Shown piece by piece: positions 49,297 to 64,000 of a stretch of 64,000 bases of DNA; positions within the stretch are counted from its first letter, which is position 1, and each line of letters starts with the position of its first letter. The notes beneath the pieces are model-generated. The model saw nothing but the letters and a program-made list of their open reading frames with translations. It was not told where the DNA came from and did no database searches. Source of the stretch: a virus; IMG/VR virus record IMGVR_UViG_3300031707_002715, positions 32,001 to 96,000 of that record; one strand, 5' to 3'. The translations under genes were made by a program, and so were the position numbers.

Positions 49297-49383
49297 TTTA
49301 AACCTTTTAATTTATTTTTACAAACATTATTCTCCAAACAATAATCACTCATTTTATCGTCGAAATGAATTTTTAAAAAAGAA

Positions 49384-49713
49384 TTAAACTTTGCAAGCGC
49401 TTTGCATTATTATATCGATTGTATCTGTCCATTTACGAGGTAAATGCCCTTCTATATTAAGGGCATAGTCTTCAGATGCTTGATCATTTGTTTCATAATA
49501 AATTACAACTTCTAAATACGGTCCGAAATCGTGCAGAAACTTTTTTGTTACAAACATACAATTTTTAGGAATATTAGGAAAAAGAGTCGCTAAAAACTGC
49601 TTATAGCGTAAACATTCAACCCTCATTTTTTCAAAATACGTCGAATCATCACTTGACACTTGCACGCAGTCTTCATCACTGGGTGCCGATCCGAGCTCGA
49701 TATAATCTTGCAT
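49384..49713 (-). CDS. Hypothetical phage protein
   Basis: Likely start 49713 (AAGGAG RBS): MQDYIELGSAPSDEDCVQV...HDFGPYLEVVIYY. Confidence 0.65.
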   Translation of the reverse strand: MQDYIELGSAPSDEDCVQVSSDDSTYFEKMRVECLRYKQFLATLFPNIPKNCMFVTKKFLHDFGPYLEVVIYYETNDQASEDYALNIEGHLPRKWTDTIDIIMQSACKV

Positions 49714-49804
49714 ATAGTCTCCTTTCATTTTTCTTTGAATAAAAAATTCTTTAGTAGTTGCAGGAGCCAGTGCGTCGCTGGAAATCTTTTTAATCACCTT
49801 TTTT

Positions 49805-51127: not shown

Positions 51128-51130
51128 AGT

Positions 51131-51850
51131 TTATTCTGTGCTCTTCCAATAGCAATACAGACATGCATGAGCACAGCGCTGCTTGTTTTCAAGCAATTCT
51201 TTTTTATTACCAAGACATGCGCAGCATGGCCTTTGCTTAAACGACTTATCAATAGGTCGTTCGTTCAATATTTCGCAATCTATAGCAGATATACAGCCTG
51301 TGCATTCAAAATCAGGTTCACCGCAAATCTCAGGTTTATCTAATTTCTCCCACGCTTTTTTCCTTAATTCTAATGGCGCATGAAAAGTCGACCACGGTAA
51401 TTTTATATCTTTTTCTTCAAATCTCTTTTTCACATGTTCGTATTGATCAATAAATGATATCCTAACTCTAGTCTTAAAAATTTGTCGAGCTTGAAGTAAT
51501 ACACCATAAGCTGTATTTATCCCTACATCTGTCGGAATAATTGGATCGATCCTCAGTACTACTCTTTCCGGACCAAGCAATTCACAGAGACTCTTAAATC
51601 CTTTTAACGACTCTTCAACAATAGGCACATTTGGTTCGACTATCGATCCACCAAAACCGGTAATTGTCGTATGAACTATAACATTCGGTGTAAAATGATA
51701 CACTTCAGGTGCTTCATTTATCATCGTCTTAAGCAAATAAAATAATTTAAGTGGATTTTTCGATATTAAAATTGCAGGCTTGAAATCTAAGACCCATGGC
51801 ATCCATTGTAAATTAATAGCAGGGTCACCGCGCTCAGTTATACCGATCAT
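51131..51850 (-). CDS. DUF1848-family (radical-SAM/SP-lyase-like) protein
   Basis: 'SKNP', 'TITGFG...EPNVP', 'LRIDPII' and C-terminal CAHACLYCY. Confidence 0.75.
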   Translation of the reverse strand: MIGITERGDPAINLQWMPWVLDFKPAILISKNPLKLFYLLKTMINEAPEVYHFTPNVIVHTTITGFGGSIVEPNVPIVEESLKGFKSLCELLGPERVVLRIDPIIPTDVGINTAYGVLLQARQIFKTRVRISFIDQYEHVKKRFEEKDIKLPWSTFHAPLELRKKAWEKLDKPEICGEPDFECTGCISAIDCEILNERPIDKSFKQRPCCACLGNKKELLENKQRCAHACLYCYWKSTE

Positions 51851-51857
51851 AATATTC

Positions 51858-52235
51858 TTAATGTGATATACATTTGAAAAATAAGTCTTGACTTATTTCT
51901 CTTGCATTTTTTCCCCTTCGAATAGCATCAGAGACTTGCTTCTTCATCACTTTTTTGCTTCCAGTCGATATGTCAGTCGTGACCTTTGCAATAGCTTCAG
52001 CCTCTGTCCTTCCATGACCAACTAGCGCACCCGATGTCCCTTCTGCTATATGATATTTCTTTACATGAAGATTCTTAAAAACATGAAGAACATAACCGGA
52101 CACTGTTATTGTCTGTAAAGGAATAGCCATAGTAAAAACAGGTTGATGAAGATCGCCACCAAACATAAATGGTTCATATTTTAATGTCCAAATACGAACG
52201 GGAACGGCAGCAGTGATTTTAACATTTTTGTGCAT
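51858..52235 (-). CDS. Hypothetical protein
   Basis: Likely start MHKNVK at 52235, just after the ligase stop. Confidence 0.55.
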   Translation of the reverse strand: MHKNVKITAAVPVRIWTLKYEPFMFGGDLHQPVFTMAIPLQTITVSGYVLHVFKNLHVKKYHIAEGTSGALVGHGRTEAEAIAKVTTDISTGSKKVMKKQVSDAIRRGKNAREISQDLFFKCISH

Positions 52236-52237
52236 TG

Positions 52238-54190
52238 TTATTCCACCATTTTCCAAAAATCGGCTTCAGGAATTGTTTTAACTCCTAATGCAGCCGCTTT
52301 TGAAATCTTATTACTGTTTGATCGACATACGAGCAAATAATTTAATTCTTTGTTCACTCGTTTAATTTCACCACCGTTTGCCGCAACAAATTCGTACCAA
52401 TCTTCTCTTCTATAAGCTTTATTCGTTTTAGGATCGATCTTTGTTAGTGGTCCGGTCACTTGAAACGATTTACCTTGCAATTTATTAGACTCCAATTTGA
52501 CTTCAACGAGCTTTTTAATTTTAACACCACTTTTCATTAACCGTTCAATTAAAGGTCGTCGTTGCTCAAGCCCTTCGACTATGTCTTTAGCTCGCGACGG
52601 ACCGATTCCTGAAATTTTTGCCAAATCCTGCTCAGTCACTTCTTCCATAAGTGCGTATAAATCGTATTCATCAGTAATTAATTCAGCCATTGTCTCACCG
52701 AGAGTGGGAATTGCTAGCGCGCATAAAAAAGTAACAATATCCATTTCTTTGCATCGTCCAAAACCTTCAACTATTTTCGTGGCCGATTTTTCACCTGATC
52801 GATCTAAACTTGCGACCTTTTGTATAGTGAGATCGTAAAAATCTGCAGGATCTTTTATAAGATTTTTCTCGTACAATTGTTCAATCGTGCTTTCACCGAT
52901 GTCTGTTAAACTCATACGTTTTTTCAAAACATCGACCCAGTGACGTAATTTACGAAATTCTTTACCTACACAATTATCGCTATCACATCTCAAATACGCG
53001 CTCTCCGGATCACGAGTCACCGGACCACCGCAAGAAGGACATTTCGTAGGCGCAACGATTTTCTTACCGACAGATTTGATGACCTGGATGACCTTAGGGA
53101 TTATCTCTCCCGATTTAATAACTAAGACGGTATCACCAATGCCGACGCCTAACCTGGCAATCTCATCGAAATTGTGAAGAGTCGCTGATTTTACTATTGA
53201 ACCATCAATATTAACTGGTTCAAGAACTGCATTTGGCGAAATGACTCCTGTCCGGCCAACTTCACATACGCAATCGAGTAATGTTGTTGCTACGCCACGC
53301 GCATCAAATTTAAAGGCAATTTGACCTTTAGGGTCACCGTTTGGATGTAGTCCGAGCTCTTTTTGTCGCGAAATGCTGTTGACCTTAAGGACTAAACCGT
53401 CAATATTGTATTTGAGTTTTTCTCGATCTGTGTCCATGTATTGTTGACGAATTCGAATGACTTCTGCCGGCGTAATTAATTTATAATTAGTGGTGACTAA
53501 TCCCAATGTGTTTGACAAATAATCAAGTTTTTCTGTTTCAAATGAAAATGTGATATCGGGTGAAACAATATCGTAAACGATCACGCAAACATATTCGAGA
53601 AATTGACCGTCAAACCGTTTTATTATGCCATTTGCAGCATTACGAGGATTTGAAAATGTTTTAGTCGATAAGCTGTTGACTTTATCAAAGTCGACTTTTA
53701 ACATCATTGCTTCACCGCGAATGCTAGCTGTGATTTTTTCCGGTAATGTCTGTTTTACAAACTTCAATTTCTTAGCATTGATAGTGATCTCATCACCGAC
53801 GTGACCGTCTCCTCGAGTGATGCCTTGTACTAATTCACCATTGATATAATTCAAGGCTATTGATGCACCGTCGAATTTGTCTTCGAGCACTAAAACTTTG
53901 CCTTGTATACGACTTGAATCAGCCCATTTTTCAAATTCAGCAATCGACATTGCGTTTGCTAATGACGACATTGGCATAGAATGTTTAGCTTTTTGCCATC
54001 CGTTCTCAGCATCTGGCGGTGCACCGGTTTTCTTCAATTCTAAATTATCAGGATCGAGCTGTTTCAATCTTTCTAATAAAGCATCGTAAACTCCATCCAA
54101 AATTCGAGGTTCCTTATTATAATAAAGATATCGATGAAGCCGAATTTCTGATGCTAATCGATCAACTTCATCTTTGACATTTTTTTTCAT
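52238..54190 (-). CDS. ligA: NAD-dependent DNA ligase
   Basis: KFDG adenylation motif, 'TRGDG', 'RGE', 'NPRNAA', 'DGLVLK', 'VGRTG', Zn finger, HhH and BRCT; start MKKNVK at 54190 with GGAG. Confidence 0.95.
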   Translation of the reverse strand: MKKNVKDEVDRLASEIRLHRYLYYNKEPRILDGVYDALLERLKQLDPDNLELKKTGAPPDAENGWQKAKHSMPMSSLANAMSIAEFEKWADSSRIQGKVLVLEDKFDGASIALNYINGELVQGITRGDGHVGDEITINAKKLKFVKQTLPEKITASIRGEAMMLKVDFDKVNSLSTKTFSNPRNAANGIIKRFDGQFLEYVCVIVYDIVSPDITFSFETEKLDYLSNTLGLVTTNYKLITPAEVIRIRQQYMDTDREKLKYNIDGLVLKVNSISRQKELGLHPNGDPKGQIAFKFDARGVATTLLDCVCEVGRTGVISPNAVLEPVNIDGSIVKSATLHNFDEIARLGVGIGDTVLVIKSGEIIPKVIQVIKSVGKKIVAPTKCPSCGGPVTRDPESAYLRCDSDNCVGKEFRKLRHWVDVLKKRMSLTDIGESTIEQLYEKNLIKDPADFYDLTIQKVASLDRSGEKSATKIVEGFGRCKEMDIVTFLCALAIPTLGETMAELITDEYDLYALMEEVTEQDLAKISGIGPSRAKDIVEGLEQRRPLIERLMKSGVKIKKLVEVKLESNKLQGKSFQVTGPLTKIDPKTNKAYRREDWYEFVAANGGEIKRVNKELNYLLVCRSNSNKISKAAALGVKTIPEADFWKMVE

Positions 54191-54206
54191 TTTTTCTCCA
54201 TTATGT

Positions 54207-54587
54207 TCACCAGCACAGAAATAAGCGTCCGATCCCGAAATGTTCACCACTTAAAATAAATTCATATTCCCAGTTATCTTCTATCCATATTCCAGAAATC
54301 ATAATATTAGTCACAGTTGCTTTGACTTTAACATTCTTCAATTCCACTACATGATCAGCCGGCGTCACGATCACAACAGCTTTATTATCATCAATATCAA
54401 TTGTTACGGAATAAAGATATTGCTTTTTATTATTAACATCCTGCCAATTAAAACTAAAAGCATAGCTTTCTGAGCCATCTTCATTTGTCCGTCTTATAGT
54501 TACTGCGCTACAACCAGATTTTTCCGTCTTATAAACAGACGTCCAAATTATCTTAGAATTATATCTCAAATGATGGAGGATTTCCAT
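54207..54587 (-). CDS. Hypothetical protein
   Basis: 126 aa with AAGGA RBS. Confidence 0.6.
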   Translation of the reverse strand: MEILHHLRYNSKIIWTSVYKTEKSGCSAVTIRRTNEDGSESYAFSFNWQDVNNKKQYLYSVTIDIDDNKAVVIVTPADHVVELKNVKVKATVTNIMISGIWIEDNWEYEFILSGEHFGIGRLFLCW

Positions 54588-54640
54588 TTTCCTTATTAAA
54601 TCTAATCATACAGAAACACGTAGATTTATGAAAATAAGCA

Positions 54641-54676
54641 AAAAAAGCTGTAGAAATATACTCTACAGCTTTCTTT
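54641..54676. terminator. Rho-independent terminator (potentially bidirectional)
   Basis: AAAGCTGTAGA (54644-54654) / TCTACAGCTTT (54662-54672) with flanking A and T tracts. Confidence 0.8.
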
Positions 54677-54687
54677 CTATAGGCCGT

Positions 54688-55188
54688 TTATTGCGTAGAT
54701 TTTTTCTTCTTTTTAAGACCGTACATTGTCGCAATAAGCGTAGAAATTGCACCGATTAATGCCACTAATCCTTCTATGACTTTAACAACAAAATCGAGGT
54801 TTTTGCGATGAGAATCTGACTGTGATTGCAAATTTTCTAAAATAGTCGTCACCTTATTTAATGAAGTTTTCGTTTCTAAAATTCGGTTATCTAACTGCTC
54901 CATATCTTTATCATATTCGTGGATTGTCACATATTGGAAATTGCGACTTAAATATAAAGGTCTTAAAATAGCGTTAGTGTCTCTCGTCGTATCTTTTATA
55001 GAGTCACGCATTGCAAACAGCTTGTCGGGCGATGTCAACGGTATTAATGGCATATATTGGAGCTGTATGAAACCAGGCTGCCTATGTGCTCTAATTCTAC
55101 CAGACTCACTTTTACTCACTAATGAATCTAATGCAGTCGCACTCACAATCGAACAGCAGACGATAATCAATAACGACATGTTACGCAT
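54688..55188 (-). CDS. Secreted/membrane protein: signal peptide, coiled coil, C-terminal TM and poly-Lys
   Basis: 'MSLLIIVCCSIVSATA' and 'VIEGLVALIGAISTLIATMYGLKKKKKS'. Confidence 0.65.
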   Translation of the reverse strand: MRNMSLLIIVCCSIVSATALDSLVSKSESGRIRAHRQPGFIQLQYMPLIPLTSPDKLFAMRDSIKDTTRDTNAILRPLYLSRNFQYVTIHEYDKDMEQLDNRILETKTSLNKVTTILENLQSQSDSHRKNLDFVVKVIEGLVALIGAISTLIATMYGLKKKKKSTQ

Positions 55189-55295
55189 GTTGCTCCCTAT
55201 TTAAAAAGTTTCGAGTAGCAATCTGTGGACTCAATCTCTTTTCTCTGACGTACTCCCACGACTAAAGTCGTTGGGTTCTCGTGTTCACTGTCTAA

Positions 55296-56321
55296 TCATG
55301 CGGCTACGCCGCTGGATAGGACAACTCCACGTTGCGGGGCATCAGTGCTCCCTTTGCATACATCCCTGTCTGTATGCAATGGATCAATTAGAGGCCACGC
55401 AGCTATGTTAAAAGCTGCGTTAGCATCCGCATGATCTACGTGTCCACACGAAGGACACATAAAGCTCTTATCTTTTCGTATGCCTATAGTCCCACACCTA
55501 CTACACTTTTTAGAAGTGTATGCGGGAGCAATTAAGCCTACGCCTACTCCAAACTTTTTGGCCTTGTACTGAATCATCATCAGTAGCTGAAAATAAGACC
55601 AAGAGGATAGGGAGTACTTGAAAGATCGAGCCTGTTTTTTATTGTTTCGGATTCCTTTAAGACTCTCCAACTTAATTGAGCAATTGTTCTCCTTTGCTGT
55701 TAAGACTATTTTCTTTGAAATCTTGTGATTCAAATCTCTAACAATATCAGACTCTCTACGTTTAATCTGATTCAGCTTTCTGTATTTCTTTTGGCTCTGT
55801 AGCTTTTTTCTGATGCTTTTATATTTTGTATGTATATGTAGAGCTTTTTTCCCAAGTTTGACAACCGACCCAGTAGAAGGAATCCCAATAACTGCACAGT
55901 GCCCCTTAGTATTCAAATCAACACCGAGATAGTTTTCAGACTTAATCAGATCAGGTTCTTTGATTTCTCCTGAGATGTAGGCGTAAGTCTTATCAAGTTC
56001 TATCTGATTTATTTTCTGGAGCTCATATCTGAAATATGTGGTGGGGAGTTTGAGCTTTAAGCATGGTATGATTAGTTCCGTTTTATCAATCTTGATGGAC
56101 TGACTTGGTACAGTCAACTTGACTCTGTTGATCCTTTTAAGTTTTTTGTTAGCACTATACTTTTTGAGTATCTGGTTAGACAGTGCTGATTTCAATCCGA
56201 AATGTTTAACATCTTTGGAACTTCTCAAACCTGTCTTTAAAGCAAATAGGGCTATCTGTCGAGCCTTTTCAAGCTCGGCGGATAAATCTACGCCATGTTT
56301 AATTTTGATCGTGAGGATCAT
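55296..56321 (-). CDS. tnpB: TnpB RNA-guided endonuclease
   Basis: LGVDLN, IKLESL, 'PAYTSKKCSRCG...CPSCG' and HADANAA. Confidence 0.92.
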   Translation of the reverse strand: MILTIKIKHGVDLSAELEKARQIALFALKTGLRSSKDVKHFGLKSALSNQILKKYSANKKLKRINRVKLTVPSQSIKIDKTELIIPCLKLKLPTTYFRYELQKINQIELDKTYAYISGEIKEPDLIKSENYLGVDLNTKGHCAVIGIPSTGSVVKLGKKALHIHTKYKSIRKKLQSQKKYRKLNQIKRRESDIVRDLNHKISKKIVLTAKENNCSIKLESLKGIRNNKKQARSFKYSLSSWSYFQLLMMIQYKAKKFGVGVGLIAPAYTSKKCSRCGTIGIRKDKSFMCPSCGHVDHADANAAFNIAAWPLIDPLHTDRDVCKGSTDAPQRGVVLSSGVAA

Positions 56322-56713
56322 TTGTAATTTTGGTCGTCAATATATTTCTTGACGGTGTCTTCTGAAATGTGACCTATAGATTCACAGTAGTAGGATCGAG
56401 TCCAGAGGAAAGGCATTCTTGATTTTAGTTTTGGAAACTCTAAACGCATTATTCTTGAACTGTATCCTTTGAGATGCTTAACAATCAAATGAGGGGAATG
56501 TATTGGTGAGCATTTAACAAAAAGATGGACATGATCTGGCATGACCTCTATGTTCTCTATGATGATAGAGAATTCTTTCGCCTTTTCATAGAAAAGTTCT
56601 TTGAGTCTTTTTTCAACATCCCCCACTAAAACCTTGCGCCTATACTTGGGACACCAGATTAGATGATAGCCCAGATTGTAGGTAGCCTTGTTTGACTTTT
56701 TCAATCTTGGCAT
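56318..56713 (-). CDS. tnpA: IS200-type Y1 HUH transposase
   Basis: 'YHLIWCPKYRRKVL', 'MPDHVHLF', 'LKGYSSR', 'LWTRSYY' and 'VKKYIDDQ'. Confidence 0.95.
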   Translation of the reverse strand: MPRLKKSNKATYNLGYHLIWCPKYRRKVLVGDVEKRLKELFYEKAKEFSIIIENIEVMPDHVHLFVKCSPIHSPHLIVKHLKGYSSRIMRLEFPKLKSRMPFLWTRSYYCESIGHISEDTVKKYIDDQNYK

Positions 56714-56800
56714 ATTAGATACCTCCTACTTATCTAATATACATCATTTTAAAAGAAGTGTAGAATTTATTTTGTGGCACGGCTCGCTTTCATCCCACGG

Positions 56801-57043
56801 CTAAAGACGCTCGAAGACTCGCTCCGTGGGCTTTCCCGCTCGCAGGATTGTAAAATTTGCAATGTCCTTACCATTATATGCCACTGTACAATGTACTTGA
56901 CTATAATTCCTTAATAAATAATTTTGTACAATCTTCTTAAATTTTTTTATTGCCTCATCGTGGCTGTTAAAATCTTTAGCAGAATATTGAGTCCTGTGCG
57001 ATTCTAAGTTATCGATCTTTTCAATGTACAGTACATATCTCAT
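56801..57043 (-). pseudogene. Hypothetical gene interrupted by the IS605 element (native 3' end at 55244-55181)
   Basis: The last ~15 codons come from the IS left end; the empty site reads ...IANFTEKRLSPQIATRNFLNREQHA*. Confidence 0.75.
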
Positions 57044-57825
57044 TGCTCCTCCTCTAATTTTTTTACTAAGGTTTTAAGACTTTCATTAATATTAAATGAA
57101 CAATCAATCCAGTTACACCATTTACAATTATCACTTTGCTTCTTTTTGAATTCATCAGCCTTTATTGCTTGAAATATCTCATCTACTTTTTTCTTAACAT
57201 CATAGTAATCTTCATCTTTAACATGTACGTCGACTATTCTATTTTCTTTTTTTGATGGATACACGAACTTAATACATTCTTCTACTATGTCGAATTGTTT
57301 ATAGAGGGCCCAACTATAAATTAACGCTTGCAACCTGTGTTTTTCTTCATTATGTTTTCCTGTCTTCCAATCTAATACATAAATCTTGCCATTGACTTCA
57401 GTCACTAGATCTATATAGCCATGAACATCAATTTCGAATTTATCATTATTATATGCCTGTTTAAATTCAAGTTCAGAACCAATCGCTTCATGTAACCAAT
57501 CATTAGCTTTTGCCATTGAAACCCAGTTTTTTATTATTGTAAAACCAGAAGCCCTAGCGTACTTCAATTCTATATCTTGCGCATTCTGCATTTTAATTTC
57601 TATATCAAAAAACTTTTCCCAATTTTGAAATAAATCGTGAGTCTGAAACGTACGCTGATTATAAAATGTCTGGAGTAATTTATGAAATGCTTGACCTAAT
57701 ACTAATGCAGCGCTCGGTGCTTTTATCGCAGTTCGTTTAAGTATTTTATCTTGTTTAAAAGCCCATGGGCACGTACAAAAATAGTTGATCGTAGAAGCAG
57801 ACAAATTGAAATCGAGCTTAATCAT
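57040..57825 (-). CDS. PD-(D/E)XK RecB/Cas4-like exonuclease
   Basis: 'LSASTIN...CP', 'GYIDL', 'VLDWKTG', 'LQALIY' and 'CKWC....C'. Confidence 0.88.
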   Translation of the reverse strand: MIKLDFNLSASTINYFCTCPWAFKQDKILKRTAIKAPSAALVLGQAFHKLLQTFYNQRTFQTHDLFQNWEKFFDIEIKMQNAQDIELKYARASGFTIIKNWVSMAKANDWLHEAIGSELEFKQAYNNDKFEIDVHGYIDLVTEVNGKIYVLDWKTGKHNEEKHRLQALIYSWALYKQFDIVEECIKFVYPSKKENRIVDVHVKDEDYYDVKKKVDEIFQAIKADEFKKKQSDNCKWCNWIDCSFNINESLKTLVKKLEEEQ

Positions 57826-59108
57826 TTTCGTTCTTTTACTGTATTTACTAATATTTTTGTCGCTTTCTCGTGCTTAACAGCTGTTTCGCTAGCACGATAA
57901 TTATTTCCCTTCTTTAAATCTTCAATAATTTGGTCTATTTCTATTTTATTTTTATTGAGTGTATTTGCTCTATTCAAAACAAATTCTTCGACCTCAGCGC
58001 TTGTCGCTGTTATATTATTAATCTGGCAAATGTGATCTAAGAAAATTTTAACTTCTAGAGCTTTTTCGACTCGAGGTCTCTTTTGAGCGTAAAATACGTC
58101 TTTACCATTTTTGTTCTTTTTCACAAATTCTTCTTCGGTCGTCCCCATCCGATACAAAAATTGATTCCATTCATTTGCTAATTCCCACTCAATCATTGCA
58201 TTCGGTATGCACTCTATTTTTGACTTGGTCACACATTGTGTCAAAATGTCTGATTCAAAATTCTCTTCATCTATCTTCTTGTAATCTTCGATTAATTTAT
58301 CACGCAATGTTGATCGAAATTGATCGACTGTCTGATCCTCATCAACTGCTAATTGTTCGACAGTTTTAATAGTTTTCGATTCTATTTTATTAATGGTAAC
58401 AGTGAATTCAGCTTCTTTATCCTGCAAATCTTTTACTTGGTAATCTGTCGGAAATCTCGTCACCACTTTACCAACTGTGCCCAATTTCAACTTGACCATT
58501 TGTTCTTCGAAACCGCTAATAAATTTTGTTTCACCGACTACAAATTTATAATTCTTAGCTGTACCACCAGAAAATGATTTGCCGTCGACTTGGCCCATAA
58601 AATCAATTATTAACACATCACCTCTTTTGATTTCATAATTTAGATCGAGCATATTAGTAAACAAGGCTTTTGAATGCTGTAAAGCTTTAACTTGGTCGTC
58701 AACCATTTGTTCAGAAATAATCGTCACATTCTTGACTACATTCACGTCTGCGATATTAAAATATTCGACTTTTGGTTTTAAGTATACTGTAGCCTGGATT
58801 GTTAGCGGTATATTATCTTCAAATGGACCGACGACTTCAAAATCAGTCGCGTCAACTACTTCTAACTTCTCCTGTTCAAGAGCTCTCTTATATAATATGT
58901 CAAACACTTCTCGATAAGCAGTGAACCTGTTAAAATGGGGTTGTTTTTCAGCTACTTCACGAGGTACATGGCCCTTGCGAAATCCGTTAGCATAAATTTG
59001 GTCTTTAATCTTTTCATATTGTTCTTCGACCAGACCTTTGACCACTTCTACAGATTCAACAAATTTTAATTTGTACGGTATTGACAACTTCTTCAACTTA
59101 ATCTCCAT
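57822..59108 (-). CDS. tig: Trigger factor (ribosome-associated chaperone/PPIase)
   Basis: GFRKGHVP ribosome-binding loop, FKBP domain 'GDVLIIDFMGQVDGKSFSGG...FISGFEEQM...FPTDY' and helical C-terminal domain; AGGAGG RBS before MEIKL. Confidence 0.92.
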   Translation of the reverse strand: MEIKLKKLSIPYKLKFVESVEVVKGLVEEQYEKIKDQIYANGFRKGHVPREVAEKQPHFNRFTAYREVFDILYKRALEQEKLEVVDATDFEVVGPFEDNIPLTIQATVYLKPKVEYFNIADVNVVKNVTIISEQMVDDQVKALQHSKALFTNMLDLNYEIKRGDVLIIDFMGQVDGKSFSGGTAKNYKFVVGETKFISGFEEQMVKLKLGTVGKVVTRFPTDYQVKDLQDKEAEFTVTINKIESKTIKTVEQLAVDEDQTVDQFRSTLRDKLIEDYKKIDEENFESDILTQCVTKSKIECIPNAMIEWELANEWNQFLYRMGTTEEEFVKKNKNGKDVFYAQKRPRVEKALEVKIFLDHICQINNITATSAEVEEFVLNRANTLNKNKIEIDQIIEDLKKGNNYRASETAVKHEKATKILVNTVKERK

Positions 59109-59325
59109 TGCGTCCTCCTGCACATAAGAATTTGAATTTAGCAATCTTGTCTTGCAATTCTAGTTTATTAGAATTCACAGGCAATTTCTTAATTTTAAGT
59201 TTATCTAAATATCTATTTGTTAACACAATCGCATTAGCTTGTTGAACTAGTGAACGTTCTCCGCGATTATTTAATTCATTAGCCATCGCAACTATCGCCG
59301 GTATAACTATGCGTCTCTTCGGCAT
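59098..59325 (-). CDS. Hypothetical protein (start uncertain, next to an IS junction)
   Basis: 75-aa ORF overlapping the tig start; weak RBS. Confidence 0.45.
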   Translation of the reverse strand: MPKRRIVIPAIVAMANELNNRGERSLVQQANAIVLTNRYLDKLKIKKLPVNSNKLELQDKIAKFKFLCAGGRNGD

Positions 59326-59394
59326 TTTCTCAATCTCAATAAATTGTTTCTAAAAGAATACTTTATTGGTACGACACCCAATTTTACAAGTTCT

Positions 59395-60533
59395 TTGAGC
59401 CTCTGCCGGGGATAAATCCCCGCAGATTCCTGACTGCAATCATGCTGCTGCATGTAGCACCTCGACGGTCGCTCCGACCGCAGCATTTAGAACATTAACG
59501 GCAGAATTTATATCTCTGTCGTTTTGTGCACCACAAGCACAGTTCCAGTGCCTTACCGAGAGTTGTGCGAGACCGCTTGGCCCGGTTAAGGCCCCGCAAG
59601 CCGAGCACATCCTCGTGGAGTTTTTTGACGGAATTTCTAAATACTTTCGACCGCACGAACTGCTTTTGTACGAAAGCATTTTTCTTAACTGGTAATGTCC
59701 AGAACTGGACACAGATTTACCGAATTTCTTGGCAATACTATTAATATTATCAGAGCTAAAAGCAATAAGAACATTTTCCTTGACAAGACGAAGTGACAGC
59801 TTGTGATTTCTATCATTGACGCGGCTTGCTCTGCGCTCAGAAAGTCTGGCGGCAAGTTGCTTATCATGGCCCCGCTGCGCTTGTCCTATCCGTTTTTCAA
59901 TAGCTTCCAGTTCCCTCGGATGTTCTATCTTTTCTCCGGTAGAGAGGGTCAACAGAGTTTTAAAACCGGGATCAATCCCTATCTGCCCATTACCGGTACA
60001 AGCTATTGGTTCTCTTTTCGCATCAATAAAAAGGCATAAGTACCAACCGGAAGCACGCTTGATTATGCGTCCGTTTTTAATAATTCCTTTAGGCAACTCC
60101 TGTTTGTGGTAGCGTATTTTACCGATACCAGGAATACTGATATGGTTTTCTTTTGGGGGATGAATGCGGTCTGGAAAGGATATGGAATTTAATTTGTTCC
60201 GCACACCTTTGAGGCGCGGTTTTCCACTAATCTTTTTAAAGCACCGCTGCCATGCCGTATAGACCTGAGACAAAACGCCTTGAATAGTGTGTGAAGGAAT
60301 TTCCAGTTTCTTTCCATGATCAGCGAGAAGATTTACAAAATCAAAAGCAGAAAAATATATTTTATCTTGTGCGTTAAGTTCTATTTTCCGTAATCCAAAA
60401 TTATAAATTGCCGTCAGATTCCACAACCAATTATCAAGCGTGGATTCCTGCTTTTTATTGAAGTGAAGTTTGAGGGCAGATGTTATCATGATTGCTGGTT
60501 AATATATCGTTGTATGGTTTGCCCGCAGACATT
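59395..60533 (-). mobile_element. 5'-truncated IS605-type element (tnpA remnant + tnpB + right end)
   Basis: Right end GAAT-CTGCGGGGATTTATCCCCGGCAG-AGGC-TCAA; tnpA tail NVCGQTIQRYINQQS* at 60533-60486; no left-end hairpin found. Confidence 0.75.
59440..60489 (-). CDS. tnpB: TnpB with atypical RuvC-II
   Basis: N-terminal HTH, IGIDPG, 'IAFSSDN' in place of I.IEDL, CSAC...CAC and DRDINSA. Confidence 0.88.
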   Translation of the reverse strand: MITSALKLHFNKKQESTLDNWLWNLTAIYNFGLRKIELNAQDKIYFSAFDFVNLLADHGKKLEIPSHTIQGVLSQVYTAWQRCFKKISGKPRLKGVRNKLNSISFPDRIHPPKENHISIPGIGKIRYHKQELPKGIIKNGRIIKRASGWYLCLFIDAKREPIACTGNGQIGIDPGFKTLLTLSTGEKIEHPRELEAIEKRIGQAQRGHDKQLAARLSERRASRVNDRNHKLSLRLVKENVLIAFSSDNINSIAKKFGKSVSSSGHYQLRKMLSYKSSSCGRKYLEIPSKNSTRMCSACGALTGPSGLAQLSVRHWNCACGAQNDRDINSAVNVLNAAVGATVEVLHAAA

Positions 60534-60702
60534 AGTGAGTTATAGAGTCAATTATGTGTGAAAAATTCTTTATGACGAAGTCCGCGACTTCATCTTCATT
60601 TATCTCTTCGTGCTTTTCCATTAAATACAAAAGGATACCCGCAGTCAAAATATCTTTAACTATTCCACTGTCAAACAATTGACCTCGTTCGTCTGTTGCC
60701 AT
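60532..60702 (-). CDS. Small hypothetical protein (56 aa; possibly truncated by the element)
   Basis: AAGGA RBS; MATDERGQLFDSGIVKDILTAGILLYLMEKHEEINEDEVADFVIKNFSHIIDSITH*. Confidence 0.55.
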   Translation of the reverse strand: MATDERGQLFDSGIVKDILTAGILLYLMEKHEEINEDEVADFVIKNFSHIIDSITH

Positions 60703-60805
60703 TTATGTTATCCTTTTCGTTAACAATGTTAACACAGACAAAATATTTAAATACAACATGTCTGAGTGATATATCGTACACATTTTTAGTTACTATTCGC
60801 CAATT

Positions 60806-62239
60806 CTATTCAGGGCTACTTTGACCTGTAATTTCAGCCATTATCTCGTCGTGCGGATTGTAATCGACATCATATTCTACTTTCATTACATCAAATTTTC
60901 GTTTCAGGAATAATGTAGGACCCCGACCGTCTCGATACTTGACGATCGACATTTTTAGCCACTGTGCTTCATCTGAAAATATACCCAACATAATATCTGA
61001 ATTTTGACCTAACCTATCAGAGCTCGCTGAATCCATAGCATCCATGTCTCTACCTTGTAAATGTCTCTTGTGACCTTCCCTGTTAATTTGGTTCGCATTT
61101 ATCACTGGCACGTCCAACTTTCTTCCCAATAATTTCAAATCCCAAGAGATAGCACCGACTGGATCATCGTCTTCTTTATTAGGCTTCATCAAATAAATAG
61201 GATCGACGATCACTAATTGAATTTTTTTACCACTTGATTTCTCAAAATTATTAATTCTAGATTCAATAAAACTCGCCTTACACATTGACGGTGCATCTAA
61301 AATTAAAAAAACATTTTCGCGCTTATCTCTTTCTTCCTTAATCTTTTGCTCAATATAAATCAATTCTTCGTCTGTCAATAAATCTGCATTTTTCATTTTA
61401 AAATAAGGTATACCGGTCATCCTCGAGTATAACCGCCTTTTTTGTTGCAATATCGGCATCTCGATTGTCACGTACATTACATTAGATCCAGTTTCCCAAG
61501 CCGCATATGCGAAATTCAATAACACGATAGACTTACCTTGTCCGGTCCTGCCCATGACTGTTATCAAATCGCCGCCCGTCCAGCCGCTAGTCGCTAACGT
61601 CAATGGCTCGATACCAGTGTCAATGCCTTTATACTTTTCTGGATTATTGTGCCTGTCTTTTATTAACGCAATATCTTCATCTATATTCTGGAATGCGTCT
61701 TCTTCAATTATCCTCTCACGAGTATTTTGATCATTTAATTGTTCTAATGTTACTTCTAACTTTCTTATTAATGGCGCAGCACTTACGTCTCTGGAGCCTT
61801 CTTTAATAGATCGAAGTTCGTTTAATATGCCTTGTGTGACGTCAAATATTTTTCTAATGTTAGATAAATTCTTTACGTCATCGATAATCGGTTCCAATTC
61901 TTGCTGCTCAAATTTCCTATTTAATATCTTTTCGAATAATGCTTTTGCATCAGCTATCGATTGCTCTTTTTTGTACTTCTTAACGATTTTTTGATTGACG
62001 AGATCAGTGGTTAAAGCTGAAGAATACGAATGATAATGTATCACTATTGCAGAGAATAACCAACCCCTAAAATCAGTCGTAAAACAATCAGGAGAAATAT
62101 TACTGTTTATAGCTTTTTCAATGTTACGATTAGCAGCTTGTTGATCGATCACATCGTGATTAATCAGACTTTTAAGTAATTTATTTTCGCCAGCTATAGA
62201 TGTAAATATCTTCTCAGACACGGTGACCCTTTTTCCCAT
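60806..62239 (-). CDS. dnaB: DnaB-like replicative helicase
   Basis: 'GIDTG', Walker A GRTGQGKS, 'YVTIEM', 'VIVDPIYLM', 'NQINR', 'QNSD' and 'IVKYRDG'. Confidence 0.92.
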   Translation of the reverse strand: MGKRVTVSEKIFTSIAGENKLLKSLINHDVIDQQAANRNIEKAINSNISPDCFTTDFRGWLFSAIVIHYHSYSSALTTDLVNQKIVKKYKKEQSIADAKALFEKILNRKFEQQELEPIIDDVKNLSNIRKIFDVTQGILNELRSIKEGSRDVSAAPLIRKLEVTLEQLNDQNTRERIIEEDAFQNIDEDIALIKDRHNNPEKYKGIDTGIEPLTLATSGWTGGDLITVMGRTGQGKSIVLLNFAYAAWETGSNVMYVTIEMPILQQKRRLYSRMTGIPYFKMKNADLLTDEELIYIEQKIKEERDKRENVFLILDAPSMCKASFIESRINNFEKSSGKKIQLVIVDPIYLMKPNKEDDDPVGAISWDLKLLGRKLDVPVINANQINREGHKRHLQGRDMDAMDSASSDRLGQNSDIMLGIFSDEAQWLKMSIVKYRDGRGPTLFLKRKFDVMKVEYDVDYNPHDEIMAEITGQSSPE

Positions 62240-62957
62240 TCATAGGTCGCTTCAACTGTTCAAGTAAGACTTTCGACTTTTCCTCTCGAATGTCAGAACC
62301 GACTATCCTAAGTTCAATCAAACTCGATTTCAATAACGTCACTAATGAGTCGTTAAAAATTGTCGATGATGCTGTAATGTCGTGCATAGATGTCAATATA
62401 GTACATTTCTTTTGATTGCAGCGCGTCACAAATAATTTATCTAAAAATTGTGTTGATTGATTAGTCTGTATATGATAATCGCGACCAATGTCATCAACTA
62501 CTAAAAAATCAACACTTGTCATGATGTATTGATATTTTAATTTTAGATTGTATTCTTTCCAACCTGACGTTATGAAGTCAACTAAATCAGTCATCGATAT
62601 AAAATAAACAGTAAATTTTTGTTCGATCGCTTTCTTTAATACGACGACGGCAGCCGTTGTCTTTGCTAAACCATGAGTACCCGATAAAAATAGCCCTGTA
62701 CCATTATCTTTTGCTTTTTCAAGATTTTCAAAATACAACGTAAAATTTTGAATAGACTCATCATTTGCGACATCGTTACTCCAAGTGTCAACTACATCAT
62801 TAAAAGTATAAGAATAATAATTAGCAGGAATATTAGCTAGGAGCATGTGCCGCTTGAGTTCATTATTTTCTTCTTTTAAGACGTGCCTGGTGCCGTCAAA
62901 CTCCGTCATCTCGTACATGCGAAAATAATGATCGAGGAATTTTCTGTGTTGATTCAT
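62214..62957 (-). CDS. DnaC/IstB-like AAA+ helicase loader
   Basis: 'ANIP..Y...TF', 'GLFLSGTHGLAKT', 'FLVVDDIG' and 'GSDIR'. Confidence 0.8.
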   Translation of the reverse strand: MNQHRKFLDHYFRMYEMTEFDGTRHVLKEENNELKRHMLLANIPANYYSYTFNDVVDTWSNDVANDESIQNFTLYFENLEKAKDNGTGLFLSGTHGLAKTTAAVVVLKKAIEQKFTVYFISMTDLVDFITSGWKEYNLKLKYQYIMTSVDFLVVDDIGRDYHIQTNQSTQFLDKLFVTRCNQKKCTILTSMHDITASSTIFNDSLVTLLKSSLIELRIVGSDIREEKSKVLLEQLKRPMNGKKGHRV

Positions 62958-62975
62958 AATGCATAATATACTTTT

Positions 62976-63890
62976 TTATTCGTTAGATTTCAACCAATTG
63001 TATCCATCGTAAATTTTATTTTCTCGCTGTTCGTCTCGTAACATTTTACAGCCTAATTTCCACAATCTGCGTAATTCATCAACATTATTATTAAGAAATT
63101 TTGCATAAACAGCATTACCGATTATGTTGCCGATCGCAAGTTTTATTGCGAACTGTTTTTCGCCAGATTGTTTTTGTTTTTCAGTGTCTCTTGTGACCTG
63201 TTCTTCATCAATATGGGGTTTATTTTTAGTTTCCACCGATATGCCTTCAGCCATCCTGACGACATATCTAAATCCTCGTAGTCCGGCTATCTTAAGGTTA
63301 TTATTATATTTGTAACAAACTTCTTTTAAAGTAATTTTATCGAAATTTGAGAGGTCCAATAAAAATTGAGCTATCGTACCAAGAGTAAAACGTTTATCTC
63401 GTTCTCGACAATGTTTTTGTATCAATTTAATCGTTTTAAGTAGCGAGTCGACTAATATATTATCAGGTTCAGAAATCACTAATTGAATCTTTTGCTTAAT
63501 CACTTCGTCAGATATCTCTCTTTGCTCTTCTTGCTGTTGTTCATTAGCAAAAACTGTCACTCTAATATTCCTAAGCTGATCATTTTCTGAAAATTCAGCA
63601 TTATCTTGTCTAATTTTTCGACCGTTTAATACATACGTTATTGAATCTTGCCGTTCTTTCTTAGTTATTAAATCACTGTCAACCAATTCTTTCCAAATGC
63701 TATGTGCATAAGCGATATTAATGCCTACAGATTTTCTCAGTGCTCTAGCGCTTCTAATATGCATATCATTATCATTAGTGCGAGCAAGATAAATCATTTT
63801 AAGAAGCACTTTAAACGCATCGCTACTTAATTCATCAATGTACTTTTCAAAAACAACTTTTTCGACTTCAAAGTAAGAGTTCATGATCAA
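62976..63890 (-). CDS. Putative replication initiator (N-terminal winged HTH)
   Basis: 'LSSDAFKVLL...LRKSVGI....WKELVDSDLI'; upstream of the loader and helicase. Confidence 0.55.
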   Translation of the reverse strand: MIMNSYFEVEKVVFEKYIDELSSDAFKVLLKMIYLARTNDNDMHIRSARALRKSVGINIAYAHSIWKELVDSDLITKKERQDSITYVLNGRKIRQDNAEFSENDQLRNIRVTVFANEQQQEEQREISDEVIKQKIQLVISEPDNILVDSLLKTIKLIQKHCRERDKRFTLGTIAQFLLDLSNFDKITLKEVCYKYNNNLKIAGLRGFRYVVRMAEGISVETKNKPHIDEEQVTRDTEKQKQSGEKQFAIKLAIGNIIGNAVYAKFLNNNVDELRRLWKLGCKMLRDEQRENKIYDGYNWLKSNE

Positions 63891-63922
63891 TTTTTAACAA
63901 AATTTTTCGTCAACTTTACAAT

Positions 63923-63950
63923 AAAAAGGCACTCAATTTCTTGAGCGCCT
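63923..63950 (-). terminator. Rho-independent terminator
   Basis: Minus strand AGGCGCTCAA-GAAA-TTGAGTGCCT-TTTT. Confidence 0.75.
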
Positions 63951-64000
63951 CTTTAATTTATAAAAAATAGCAATTTTTTATATCTTAGAATCTTCAGGCT

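What the first reader, a model, noticed from the sequence alone, without database searches (positions are those of the whole stretch)
57822..59108. Phage-encoded full-length trigger factor
Seen: all three domains with an intact GFRKGHVP loop, a strong RBS and ATGA coupling to a phage exonuclease, with no clpP/clpX neighbours. Known: tig is a bacterial ribosome-exit-tunnel chaperone, usually beside clpPX, and is not a typical phage gene. Inference: the phage occupies the ribosome exit site to fold its giant multi-domain tail proteins or to displace the host factor.
Basis: partly seen in the sequence, partly recalled or inferred. Interest (0 to 1): 0.7.

Follow-up and report, generated by a model that had tools for sequence, protein, structure and literature searches.

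The report
Megaphage-encoded canonical trigger factor chaperone
A family of very large uncultured phages carries its own, long-inherited copy of trigger factor, the bacterial chaperone that receives new proteins at the ribosome exit, probably to help fold the phage's many giant proteins.

Summary
Window 57822-59108 (-) encodes a 428-aa, three-domain trigger factor (TF). It scores 231 bits against the 180.2 cut-off of TIGR00115. The GFRKGHVP loop is intact, AGGAGG lies 5 nt before the ATG, and an ATGA overlap leads into a Cas4-like PD-(D/E)XK nuclease.

The contig is viral and not chimeric. It is a 126-kb IMG/VR record judged 27% complete, with baseplate, neck and tape-measure genes. Nine other IMG/VR contigs (43-424 kb) keep the block [304-aa ORF]-DnaC-like-DnaB-TF.

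TF identity tracks DnaB identity across these contigs (r 0.96), and dN/dS is about 0.1. These TFs form their own clade. No cellular genome examined reaches more than 32% identity. The gene is therefore an old, vertically inherited phage gene and not a recent host pick-up.

ClpP, ClpX, deformylase, Hsp70 and Cpn60 were not found in five family records. A second phage lineage also carries a TF beside a nuclease and Pol III alpha.

The function, a ribosome-docked chaperone for phage proteins, is inferred and untested. The host is unknown.

I found no paper describing a phage TF. The nearest is a megaplasmid TF proposed to chaperone giant proteins. This scan's unchecked notes report phage TFs on other DNA.

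The parts
57822..59108 (-). Trigger factor gene, 428 aa (P0001)
   Evidence: TIGR00115 scores 231 bits against a 180.2 cut-off. Three Pfam domains match. The AlphaFold2 model has pLDDT 89.3 and matches E. coli TF 2vrh/1w26.
58680..59108 (-). N-terminal (ribosome-binding type) domain, residues 1-143
   Evidence: Pfam Trigger_N, E 3.9e-18.
58962..58985 (-). GFRKGHVP, the TF signature loop (residues 42-49)
   Evidence: Read. G42, R44, G46 and P49 are invariant, and F43 and K45 at least 90% conserved, in 33 clade sequences. It aligns to E. coli G43-P50.
58392..58631 (-). FKBP-type PPIase domain, residues 160-239
   Evidence: Pfam FKBP_C, E 4.5e-12. F179, F200, Y223 and F235 are invariant in the clade.
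57846..58331 (-). C-terminal chaperone ('arms') domain, residues 260-421, with clade-specific invariant W314 and R320
   Evidence: Pfam Trigger_C, E 3.7e-18.
59114..59119 (-). Shine-Dalgarno AGGAGG, 5 nt before the ATG
   Evidence: A GGAGG occupies the same place in L002-L007.
59098..59325 (-). 75-aa ORF that overlaps the TF start by 11 nt; conserved upstream of TF in subclade A
   Evidence: tblastn matches in L002, L003 and L005 (E 1e-4 to 2e-12), a partial match in L004, and none in L006, L007, L096-L098.
57040..57825 (-). PD-(D/E)XK / Cas4-like nuclease with four conserved Cys, joined to TF by an ATGA overlap
   Evidence: Pfam PDDEXK_1 E 2.6e-26 and Cas_Cas4 E 6.2e-11. PHROG 'exonuclease'. 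Invariant C19, D139, D152, K154, Q166, Y170, C234, C237, C242.
56801..57043 (-). 80-aa ORF after the nuclease, function unknown
   Evidence: A homologue sits in the same place in L004.
60806..62239 (-). DnaB-like replicative helicase, upstream operon partner of TF
   Evidence: Pfam DnaB_C. phrog_19. Adjacent to TF in all nine related contigs.
62214..62957 (-). DnaC-like helicase loader
   Evidence: Pfam IstB_IS21/Bac_DnaA. phrog_50.
62976..63890 (-). Conserved 304-aa ORF at the head of the block, function unknown
   Evidence: Homologues in the same place in all nine related contigs. No Pfam or PHROG match.
59440..60489 (-). TnpB-type IS element inserted between DnaB and TF. It has removed all but the last 28 codons (59313-59396) of a ~220-aa gene that relatives keep there.
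   Evidence: Pfam Cas12f1-like_TNB and OrfB_IS605. Remnant and relatives' gene. Other sequencing runs hold only this part.
55296..56713 (-). IS605-family element (TnpB 55296-56321 and IS200-type TnpA 56318-56713) on the other side of the TF segment
   Evidence: Pfam. Absent from this place in L002-L005.
52238..54250 (-). NAD-dependent DNA ligase, the next conserved member of the replication module
   Evidence: phrog_3869, E 3e-152. Syntenic in L002-L004.

Best explanation
This is a functional, phage-encoded trigger factor. An ancestor of a family of roughly 400-500-kb tailed phages acquired a bacterial tig gene long ago. The family has kept it since as part of its DnaC-DnaB-TF-nuclease operon.

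Inferred mechanism. The gene is transcribed with the replication genes and translated efficiently from a strong Shine-Dalgarno site. The protein then docks through its GFRKGxxP loop at the host ribosome's exit port (uL23/uL29). There it shields and folds nascent phage polypeptides with its C-terminal cradle and FKBP prolyl-isomerase head. This adds co-translational folding capacity, tuned to phage clients, before and during synthesis of the phage's many very large multidomain proteins.

Shown: identity, fold, motif conservation, purifying selection, phage location, vertical inheritance. Inferred: ribosome binding, the clients, the timing.
For: Family membership: TIGR00115 scores 231 bits against a 180.2 cut-off, and three Pfam domains match. 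The profile aligns end to end with E. coli TF 1w26, E 1.1e-48. The AlphaFold2 model (pLDDT 89.3) has as top Foldseek hits E. coli TF on the ribosome (2vrh, E 1.4e-22) and T. maritima TF.

Functional residues: G42, R44, G46 and P49 are invariant and F43 and K45 at least 90% conserved in 33 clade sequences. So are the aromatic positions that align to E. coli F177, F198, Y221 and F233.

Selection: dN/dS is 0.11 (window vs L002) and 0.08 (L002 vs L003), with synonymous sites near saturation.

Phage location: the record is an IMG/VR virus record, 27% complete by CheckV. It has Baseplate_J, a baseplate wedge, a tape-measure match and a neck protein. Its distant relatives include Bacillus phage G genes.

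Inheritance: the block [304-aa ORF]-DnaC-DnaB-TF occurs in 9 of 9 related IMG/VR contigs of 43-424 kb. Pairwise TF identity follows DnaB identity (Pearson 0.96; Mantel 0 of 2000) and DnaC identity (0.94).

Separateness: a 33-row clade (7 rows on viral contigs, 26 unnamed metagenomic proteins) has 100% SH-aLRT support and a stem of 0.65, apart from 83 other rows. The best of 80 kept cellular loci is 32% identical. An exhaustive HMMER search shows a graded series of 72, 46, 42 and 36% identity, then 25-35% down the full-length rows, with no break between clade and cellular proteins.

Clients: 8 of 121 ORFs in the 126-kb record reach 1000 aa or more, up to 2163 aa.

Selectivity: ClpP, ClpX, deformylase, Hsp70 and Cpn60 gave 0 of 5 records each, including a 424-kb record 98% complete.

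Precedent: gut megaplasmids encode a TF that their authors propose chaperones 7300-aa proteins (PMC12934698, passages read).
Against: No experiment or expression data exist. No RNA run was available.

The conserved neighbours are replication and recombination genes, not structural genes. This neither requires nor points to giant tail proteins as clients.

The host is unknown, so compatibility with its ribosome is assumed.

Bacterial TF is already abundant in cells, so the need for extra TF is not obvious.

Only 7 of the 33 clade rows in the first tree are verified to lie on viral contigs. One of them (P0009) is labelled as coming from a Nitrosarchaeum MAG.

IMG/VR flags two related records (330 kb and 195 kb) as 'provirus'.

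The trees are quick searches with a taxon sample biased by the search patterns.
Confidence: 0.6

Rival explanations
1. The phage TF works mainly off the ribosome, as a dedicated holdase or assembly chaperone for the replication and recombination machinery encoded next to it: the DnaB helicase, its loader and the Fe-S Cas4-like nuclease. This would resemble the chaperone-driven release of helicase from its loader in phage lambda.
For: DnaB-TF adjacency occurs in 9 of 9 related contigs. In L006 and L007 the DnaB end and the TF start overlap. A nuclease gene follows TF with a 4-nt overlap in the window, L004, L005, L006, L007, L096 and L097. The L006-type gene is a divergent homologue of the window's nuclease. 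A second phage lineage again places TF two genes from a PD-(D/E)XK nuclease and three genes before Pol III alpha. T. maritima TF has a described assembly activity (title of PDB entry 3gty).
Against: Gene order may only reflect early or middle expression timing. The ribosome-docking loop is invariant, which an off-ribosome chaperone would not need. Nothing obtained here points to contact between these proteins.
Confidence: 0.15
2. The TF is a host-takeover device. It is made in excess, competes with the host TF and other exit-site factors (SRP, deformylase) for uL23, and so disturbs host protein export, maturation or cell division instead of folding phage proteins.
For: The docking loop is intact. 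A strong SD is present in all seven genes examined. It is co-expressed with early/middle-type replication genes. The C-domain is clade-specific and divergent, with invariant W314 and R320. That TF overproduction blocks E. coli division is my recollection of the older literature and comes from no call.
Against: The PPIase pocket and the whole C-terminal cradle are conserved under dN/dS of about 0.1. That is more than a pure competitor would need. No other takeover gene is linked to it.
Confidence: 0.1
3. The TF serves counter-defence. It might buffer or hide phage proteins that trigger chaperone-dependent or folding-sensing host immunity, or stabilise anti-defence proteins.
For: Only indirect. 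A paper on large aquatic phages discusses phage DnaK/DnaJ as possible counter-defence (PMC12619734, passages read). The window is rich in conflict-type elements: three TnpB genes.
Against: No defence or anti-defence gene is linked to TF in the conserved block. A padloc scan was not run.
Confidence: 0.05
4. The gene is not a phage gene at all. On this reading it is either cellular DNA, a chimeric join at the flanking IS repeats, or a recent passenger picked up from the host.
For: IS elements flank the TF segment, and independent contigs break at them. Some IMG/VR contigs do carry cellular-type TFs: L100 groups with Lachnospiraceae, and L101, L102, L106 and L108 with Alphaproteobacteria. A SAR11 prophage is known to integrate beside the host tig (bioRxiv 10.1101/672428, passage read).
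Against: The same gene order occurs in relatives that lack the IS elements. Depth is uniform at about 43 across 55200-62300, and one 3875-nt contig with 0 differences spans 55549-59423 in the probable source run. Co-divergence with DnaB and DnaC. At most 32% identity to any cellular TF found.
Confidence: 0.02

Closest known systems
Bacterial trigger factor (Tig; TIGR00115; E. coli TF, PDB 1w26/2vrh; T. maritima TF, 3gty)
   Same: Same three-domain order, length (428 vs 432 aa), signature loop, FKBP aromatic pocket and overall fold.
   Different: Encoded by a phage, without clpP or clpX. At most 32% identical to any cellular TF found. Forms its own clade. Carries clade-specific invariant residues in the C-domain (W314, R320). 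Sits in a DnaC-DnaB-TF-nuclease operon.
Trigger factor of 'Hodor' conjugative megaplasmids of gut bacteria (preprint PMC12934698; passages read)
   Same: A TF carried by a very large mobile element that also encodes giant proteins. Its authors propose that the TF chaperones them.
   Different: That element is a plasmid, and its TF lies with a class B sortase and SecYEG for secreted surface proteins. Here the carrier is a tailed phage and the TF lies in the replication module. Sequence relatedness between the two was not tested.
Other phage-encoded general chaperones (HSP60, HSP10 and J-domain proteins of jumbo phages, PMC7824862; DnaK/DnaJ of 'moraphages', PMC12619734; passages read)
   Same: Large phages import host-type folding helpers, presumably for virion assembly or takeover.
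   Different: Those act after translation and mostly recruit host partners. TF acts on the ribosome and needs no ATP or partner. Neither paper's main text holds 'trigger factor'. This phage family gave no Hsp70 or Cpn60 match.
Phage-encoded ribosome-associated proteins (for example bS21 in large phages, PMC9723584, abstract seen; ribosomal proteins in viruses, PMC6375957, abstract seen)
   Same: A virus-encoded protein that would sit on the host ribosome and could bias it towards viral needs.
   Different: Those are ribosome subunit components at the mRNA side. TF is a detachable factor at the exit tunnel.
PHROG family phrog_26774 ('unknown function')
   Same: The window's protein matches it over its whole length, E 3.2e-45. 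TF-like proteins therefore already sit, unnamed, in a phage protein catalogue.
   Different: The PHROG has no annotation, and I could not see its members. GenBank phage records with TF-like matches are at most 32% identical. Most are unannotated, several are short, and they were not examined further.
Bacillus phage G (497.5 kb) and the uncultured 485-kb phage LR745208
   Same: These include the strongest matches of two of the window's proteins in the GenBank phage collection: DnaB to phage G gp226 (E 2e-28), and the 960-aa protein to LR745208 (E 9e-31), a Tunturiibacter phage (E 9e-26) and phage G gp211 (E 3e-17). Phage G has the same loader-DnaB order.
   Different: Phage G shows no TF beside DnaB and none by tblastn. 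It does encode ClpP and ClpX (PMC12484599, passages read), which this family lacks.

Membership tests
Trigger factor (Tig, TIGR00115 equivalog) | Whole-protein score above NCBIfam's curated cut-off | tested here: met
   231 bits against 180.2; profile positions 7-409 of 410 are matched.
Trigger factor (Tig, TIGR00115 equivalog) | Domain order Trigger_N - FKBP PPIase - Trigger_C | tested here: met
   Pfam PF05697 at 1-143, PF00254 at 160-239, PF05698 at 260-421, all above the gathering scores.
Trigger factor (Tig, TIGR00115 equivalog) | Signature loop GFRxGxxP in the N-domain (the ribosome-docking element; that role is recalled from the literature) | tested here: met
   GFRKGHVP at residues 42-49. 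It aligns to E. coli G43-P50 and is conserved in 33 clade sequences.
Trigger factor (Tig, TIGR00115 equivalog) | Aromatic PPIase pocket (E. coli F168, F177, F185, I195, F198, Y221, F233; roles recalled, numbering counted) | tested here: met
   The window has F170, F179, Y187, I197, F200, Y223 and F235 at the aligned places. F179, F200, Y223 and F235 are invariant in the clade.
Trigger factor (Tig, TIGR00115 equivalog) | Three-dimensional TF fold | tested here: met
   The model has pLDDT 89.3. Foldseek finds 2vrh_A (E 1.4e-22, TM 0.55 over 435 columns), 1w26, 3gty and 1t11. The modest TM-score is usual for a flexible multi-domain protein.
Trigger factor (Tig, TIGR00115 equivalog) | Binding to the 50S subunit at uL23/uL29, and chaperone or PPIase activity | not testable with these tools
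   This needs co-sedimentation, cryo-EM, a refolding or PPIase assay, or complementation.
Cellular tig locus (tig-clpP-clpX neighbourhood typical of many bacteria; recalled) | clpP and clpX beside tig, in a cellular chromosome | tested here: not met
   The neighbours are DnaB, a TnpB element and a nuclease. ClpP and ClpX gave 0 of 5 related viral records.
Tailed phage (Caudoviricetes), huge-genome class | Virion structural genes and a viral classification of the contig | tested here: met
   IMG/VR virus record. Baseplate_J scores 75.4 bits against 21.1. phrog_6 baseplate wedge, E 1.7e-32, and a tape-measure match. Neck1/tail completion, E 1.2e-6. Terminase_6N was not found, and the sheath Pfam gave only one weak match. 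No capsid gene was identified by me.
Tailed phage (Caudoviricetes), huge-genome class | Genome above 200 kb | tested here: inconclusive
   The window's record is 126 kb at an estimated 27% completeness. Relatives are 416 kb (77%), 424 kb (98%) and 330 kb (67%). The size of this particular phage is an extrapolation.

The most novel reading that the evidence does not exclude
Trigger factor is a lineage-defining core gene of a megaphage family and the only classical chaperone found in it among those searched. It is hard-wired between the replicative helicase and a Cas4-like Fe-S nuclease and translationally coupled to them. Either it turns host ribosomes into phage-specialised ribosomes at the exit tunnel early in infection, or it has been recruited as an off-ribosome assembly factor for the phage replisome and recombination machinery. 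Either would be a new role for this chaperone. A more remote possibility is not excluded: some members infect hosts that lack TF. One clade protein is labelled as from a Nitrosarchaeum MAG, and the nearest named relatives of the IS605 TnpB are archaeal.
Probability: 0.15. Interest if true: 0.8.

Novelty: new member of a known kind. Interest (0 to 1): 0.55.

Why it matters
Viruses are known to carry tRNAs, translation factors, a few ribosomal proteins and post-translational chaperones. A virus-encoded factor for the ribosome exit tunnel would extend viral control of translation to co-translational folding.

The gene here is not a stray pick-up. It has been kept for a very long time in phages with genomes of several hundred kilobases and many proteins above 1000 residues. 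That makes it a natural test of whether folding capacity limits how large a phage and its proteins can become.

The claim is easy to test by complementation of tig/dnaK mutants and by ribosome co-sedimentation. The protein could also serve as a co-expression helper for large phage proteins.

The repeated linkage to a helicase and a Cas4-like nuclease is unexplained and worth an experiment.

Tried and rejected
I used the search for related loci instead.

Binding of TF to the neighbouring nuclease: complex prediction gave no verdict (score 0.00). This counts neither for nor against binding.

Expression: no RNA holder was listed. The three small-share runs laid (X2, X3, X8, including pond and viral metagenome runs) hold essentially only the IS/TnpB parts, not TF.

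Host identification was not settled.
- The TnpB at 55296-56321 has unnamed relatives at 74-89% identity. Its nearest named relatives are archaeal at 57-60% (Thermoplasma, Thermoplasmata MAGs, Methanohalophilus).
- I rejected an archaeal host as the main reading for four reasons: the module uses DnaB, a DnaC-like loader and an NAD ligase; the CCA enzyme is class II with an HD domain; the second lineage has a sigma-70-like gene and Pol III alpha; and Bacillus phage G is among the few isolated phages with matches to both proteins searched.
- Terminator-like sites are not enriched (14 against 11.4, sd 3.5). Promoter-like sites are modestly enriched (104 against 71.1, sd 9.0).
- A Shine-Dalgarno core precedes 26 of 92 ORFs of 100 aa or more, against a background of 3.4%.

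Donor of the gene: not resolved. The best cellular matches are Bacillota and Mycoplasmatota at 28-32% identity. In the trees the phage clade stands apart from all sampled phyla. The cellular sample was chosen by peptide patterns and is biased. 79 of 80 loci were used, one having failed the length/X filter.

Single or double acquisition by the two phage lineages: the free tree separates them. An AU test does not reject joining them (p 0.358).

A tig-clpP-clpX origin shared with phage G's ClpXP: I considered this, but found no ClpP or ClpX in this family and no TF in phage G.

Structural hallmarks: most PHROG and Pfam scans of structural ORFs came back blank. Terminase_6N was absent and the sheath match weak. 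BFVD holds no TF-like fold, with 0 matches at E 0.001 or better.

Loci L008 and L109 and the FKBP-only loci L110-L117 were not analysed beyond their listing.

Literature: six searches found no main text describing a phage-encoded TF. One virome paper states that none was detected (PMC8407431, passage read). Supplementary tables, which were closed, may list such genes.
Full report
THE GENE. On the minus strand an ORF runs from the ATG at 59108 to a TGA at 57824-57822 and encodes 428 residues. AGGAGG lies at 59119-59114, 5 nt before the ATG. The stop overlaps the ATG of the next gene in the form ATGA. Pfam finds Trigger_N (1-143), FKBP_C (160-239) and Trigger_C (260-421). The NCBIfam equivalog model for tig scores 231 bits against a cut-off of 180.2. 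GFRKGHVP occupies residues 42-49. The downstream gene is a 261-aa PD-(D/E)XK nuclease of the Cas4 type, which PHROGs call an exonuclease. Its relatives share four invariant cysteines and the D..D-x-K and Q...Y motifs.

STRUCTURE AND FUNCTIONAL RESIDUES. A profile of 23 relatives aligns end to end with E. coli TF (1w26, E 1.1e-48). An AlphaFold2 model built on that alignment has mean pLDDT 89.3. Its best Foldseek matches in the PDB are E. coli TF bound to the ribosome (2vrh, E 1.4e-22; 1w26) and T. maritima TF (3gty). I counted residues along the printed alignment. By that count the window's loop aligns to E. coli G43-P50. Its F170, F179, Y187, I197, F200, Y223 and F235 align to E. coli F168, F177, F185, I195, F198, Y221 and F233. 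That these positions form the ribosome-docking loop and the prolyl-isomerase pocket is my recollection of the TF literature and comes from no call. In an alignment of 33 clade members, G42, R44, G46, P49, F179, F200, Y223 and F235 are invariant. So are W314 and R320 in the C-domain, which mark this clade.

IS IT REALLY IN A PHAGE? The window is bases 32001-96000 of a 126,451-base IMG/VR virus record that CheckV rates 27% complete. By simple division that implies a genome of roughly 470 kb. The record encodes a Baseplate_J protein (Pfam 75.4 bits; phrog_6, E 1.7e-32), a tape-measure-like C-terminus and a Neck1/tail-completion protein. Most other structural ORFs match nothing. Terminase_6N was not found, and the sheath model gave only one weak match in a relative. 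Matches to isolated phages are all distant. Bacillus phage G gives the highest-scoring DnaB match among the listed rows (497.5 kb; gp226, E 2e-28). The 960-aa protein matches a 485-kb uncultured phage (E 9e-31), a Tunturiibacter phage (E 9e-26) and phage G gp211 (E 3e-17).

SYNTENY. The decisive evidence is conserved gene order. Scans of IMG/VR with clade alignments returned nine other contigs: L002 (113 kb), L003 (128 kb), L004 (416 kb), L005 (330 kb), L006 (71 kb), L007 (424 kb), L096 (195 kb), L097 (63 kb) and L098 (43 kb). All nine keep the order [304-aa ORF]-[DnaC-like loader]-[DnaB]-[TF]. A nuclease homologue follows TF in L002-L005, L097 and L098. A divergent nuclease follows it in L006. 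A same-sized ORF in L007 and L096 aligns with it. CheckV rates the 424-kb record 98% complete and the 416-kb record 77%.

CHIMERA CHECK. In the window the TF segment is flanked by IS605-family elements, and assembled contigs of the probable source run break at them. However, depth is uniform at about 43 across 55200-62300, and one 3875-base contig without a single difference spans 55549-59423. Relatives that lack the IS elements show the same gene order. The TnpB element at 59440-60489 has removed all but the last 28 codons of a ~220-aa gene that L002-L005 keep between DnaB and the small ORF before TF. TF itself is untouched. A chimeric or cellular origin is therefore rejected.

AGE AND INHERITANCE. 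Across the ten contigs, pairwise TF identity (26-84%) follows DnaB identity (34-92%), with Pearson r 0.96. None of 2000 Mantel permutations reached this value. The correlation with DnaC identity is r 0.94. TF evolves faster than DnaB but along the same history. dN/dS is 0.11 (window vs L002) and 0.08 (L002 vs L003), with synonymous sites close to saturation.

RELATION TO CELLULAR TFs. An exhaustive HMMER search of 1.84 billion representatives gave 11,012 hits. The top of the list is a graded series of 72, 46, 42 and 36% identity, and the full-length rows below it fall between 25 and 35%, with no break in identity or E-value separating clade from cellular proteins. A pattern-seeded scan of one genome for each of 185,579 species found 223 confirmed relatives. 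The best 80 kept were at most 32% identical, and Bacillota and Mycoplasmatota led the list.

FIRST TREE. The tree had 116 rows (quick IQ-TREE, SH-aLRT only). In it 33 rows form a clade with 100% support and a stem of 0.65 changes per column, apart from 83 other rows. The 33 comprise the seven from viral contigs then in hand and 26 unnamed metagenomic proteins. The 83 comprise 79 named cellular loci from eleven phylum labels and 4 unnamed proteins. No donor phylum is resolved. The cellular sample is biased by the search patterns, and the root is only a midpoint.

A SECOND PHAGE LINEAGE, AND CELLULAR-TYPE TFs IN VIRAL RECORDS. Four further IMG/VR contigs (L103, L104, L105, L107; 28-162 kb; GC 0.30-0.37) share the order dNMP kinase - 5' nucleotidase - small ORF - Fn3/CHB domain protein - PD-(D/E)XK nuclease - sigma-70-like protein - unknown - TF - two small ORFs - Pol III alpha. 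Their TFs form a separate long-stemmed clade (100% support, stem 1.17) that the free tree does not join to the main clade. An AU test does not reject joining them (p 0.358). One or two acquisitions therefore remain open.

Other TF matches in IMG/VR are of cellular type. L100 groups with a Lachnospiraceae TF. L101, L102, L106 and L108 (GC about 0.6) nest within Alphaproteobacteria. They probably reflect host DNA at prophage borders, as described for a SAR11 prophage that integrates beside tig (bioRxiv 10.1101/672428, passage read). Eight more loci hold only an FKBP-type segment in large viral contigs. I did not study them.

WHAT ELSE THE FAMILY CARRIES. I searched five family records for each of five genes. 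ClpP and ClpX were searched in the 416-, 330-, 424-, 195- and 128-kb relatives. Peptide deformylase, Hsp70 and Cpn60 were searched in the window's record and the first four of those relatives. All five gave 0 of 5, while the control genomes rang as expected. Among the classical proteostasis genes tested, TF is thus the only one this family keeps. The 126-kb record encodes 8 ORFs of 1000 aa or more (1093 to 2163 aa) and 15 of 700 aa or more, out of 121 ORFs. Every TF gene examined has a GGAGG-type site just upstream. Only 26 of 92 larger ORFs in the record show a Shine-Dalgarno core. This suggests efficient translation of TF.

MECHANISM. The best-supported reading is that this is a working trigger factor. 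It would dock on the host ribosome through the conserved loop and chaperone nascent phage proteins. It would be expressed together with the replication genes, so that it is in place when the giant structural proteins are made. Identity, fold, conserved residues, selection and inheritance are shown. Ribosome binding, the clients and the timing are inferred.

A preprint on gut megaplasmids offers a close parallel. Those elements encode a TF next to a sortase and SecYEG, and the authors suggest it chaperones 7300-aa proteins (PMC12934698, passages read).

The main rival is an off-ribosome role tied to the helicase and the Cas4-like nuclease. It draws on the remarkably stable operon position and on the recurrence of a nuclease near TF in the second lineage. 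The complex prediction for TF with the nuclease returned no verdict and is not used either way. Takeover by competition at the exit site and counter-defence are possible but have less support.

HOST. The host is unknown. The replication genes, the class II CCA enzyme, the sigma-70-like and Pol III alpha genes of the second lineage and the kinship with phage G point to bacteria. Two oddities remain. One clade protein is labelled as from a Nitrosarchaeum MAG. This is possibly a binning error, since the phage GC of 0.27-0.38 could fit such a bin. That this archaeon has low GC is my recollection. Also, the nearest named relatives of one TnpB are archaeal at 57-60% identity.

NOVELTY. Six full-text searches found no paper whose main text describes a phage-encoded trigger factor. 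A Southern Ocean virome paper says no analogue was detected among its viral proteins (PMC8407431, passage read). In the listings, the huge- and jumbo-phage papers show zero occurrences of the term. For the Iyer-Aravind overview I also searched for FKBP and prolyl and found none. Supplementary tables were closed and may list such genes.

TF-like proteins do sit unnamed in PHROGs (phrog_26774). Two 'Acinetobacter phage' GenBank records annotate a tig gene at 26% identity. BFVD holds no TF-like fold. Unchecked notes of this scan report phage TFs on other DNA: a cut-down one beside ClpP, a divergent one in a salt-lake phage, and one fused to an FN3 protein. I did not test those.

I class the finding as a new member of a known kind. 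It is an orthodox trigger factor in an unorthodox carrier, with an unexplained, conserved link to replication and recombination genes.

Noticed in passing
G000:C1 120041-125016 (outside the window, 24-29 kb beyond its end): Seven tRNA genes, including one with a CTA anticodon (an amber-suppressor type, which ARAGORN calls 'Pyl') and one called with a four-base anticodon (cttg). The window itself has no tRNA, and its ORFs are open under table 11.
   Followed up: no
window 55296-56321 (-), 59440-60489 (-), 41488-42582 (+); G000:C1 104574-105623 and 125338-126450: Five TnpB-type genes lie in the 126-kb record. Only two are close copies of each other, at 80% identity. The nearest named relatives of the one at 55296-56321 are archaeal at 57-60% identity (Thermoplasma, Thermoplasmata, Methanohalophilus), and unnamed relatives reach 74-89%.
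   Followed up: partly
window 59313-59396 (-): This is a remnant (the last 28 codons, 79% identical) of a ~220-aa gene that relatives L002-L005 keep between DnaB and the small ORF before TF. The TnpB element has replaced the rest of it.
   Followed up: yes
G000:C1 100869-103835 (-) = L092:5370-8336: A 988-aa ResIII/DEAD helicase carries an intein with a LAGLIDADG domain. The homologue is about 980 aa in L007. It is only 483-510 aa, apparently intein-free, in L002, L003, L005, L006 and L097.
   Followed up: partly
L103, L104, L105, L107 (IMG/VR contigs of 28-162 kb): A second phage lineage carries its own TF clade in the order dNMP kinase - 5' nucleotidase - small ORF - Fn3/CHB domain protein - PD-(D/E)XK nuclease - sigma-70-like - unknown - TF - two small ORFs - Pol III alpha.
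   Followed up: partly
L110-L117 (IMG/VR contigs of 89-389 kb): Eight loci match only the FKBP/PPIase part of TF (query residues about 103-247, 28-32% identity). They are possibly stand-alone FKBP isomerases of other large phages.
   Followed up: no
window 17372-23020 (+): This 1882-aa protein has repeated ASH/HYDIN/Cep192-type Ig-like domains (Pfam ASH, E 4e-50, five stretches). These domains are better known from eukaryotic cilia proteins and bacterial surface proteins.
   Followed up: no
window 54640-54676 (both strands): A 16-bp-stem hairpin followed by a T run, the only strong terminator-like site in 44001-64000, lies between the ORFs at 54688-55188 and 54207-54587.
   Followed up: no
protein P0009 (33-kb contig, not fetched): A member of the phage TF clade, 57% identical to the window's protein, is deposited as 'MAG: trigger factor [Nitrosarchaeum sp.]'. 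As far as I recall, archaea have no trigger factor, so the contig is probably a mis-binned phage fragment. I could not read it.
   Followed up: no
IMG/VR records behind L005 (330 kb) and L096 (195 kb): IMG/VR classes both as 'provirus'. Either these huge phages integrate, or the host-region call is an artefact of their many cellular-type genes.
   Followed up: no
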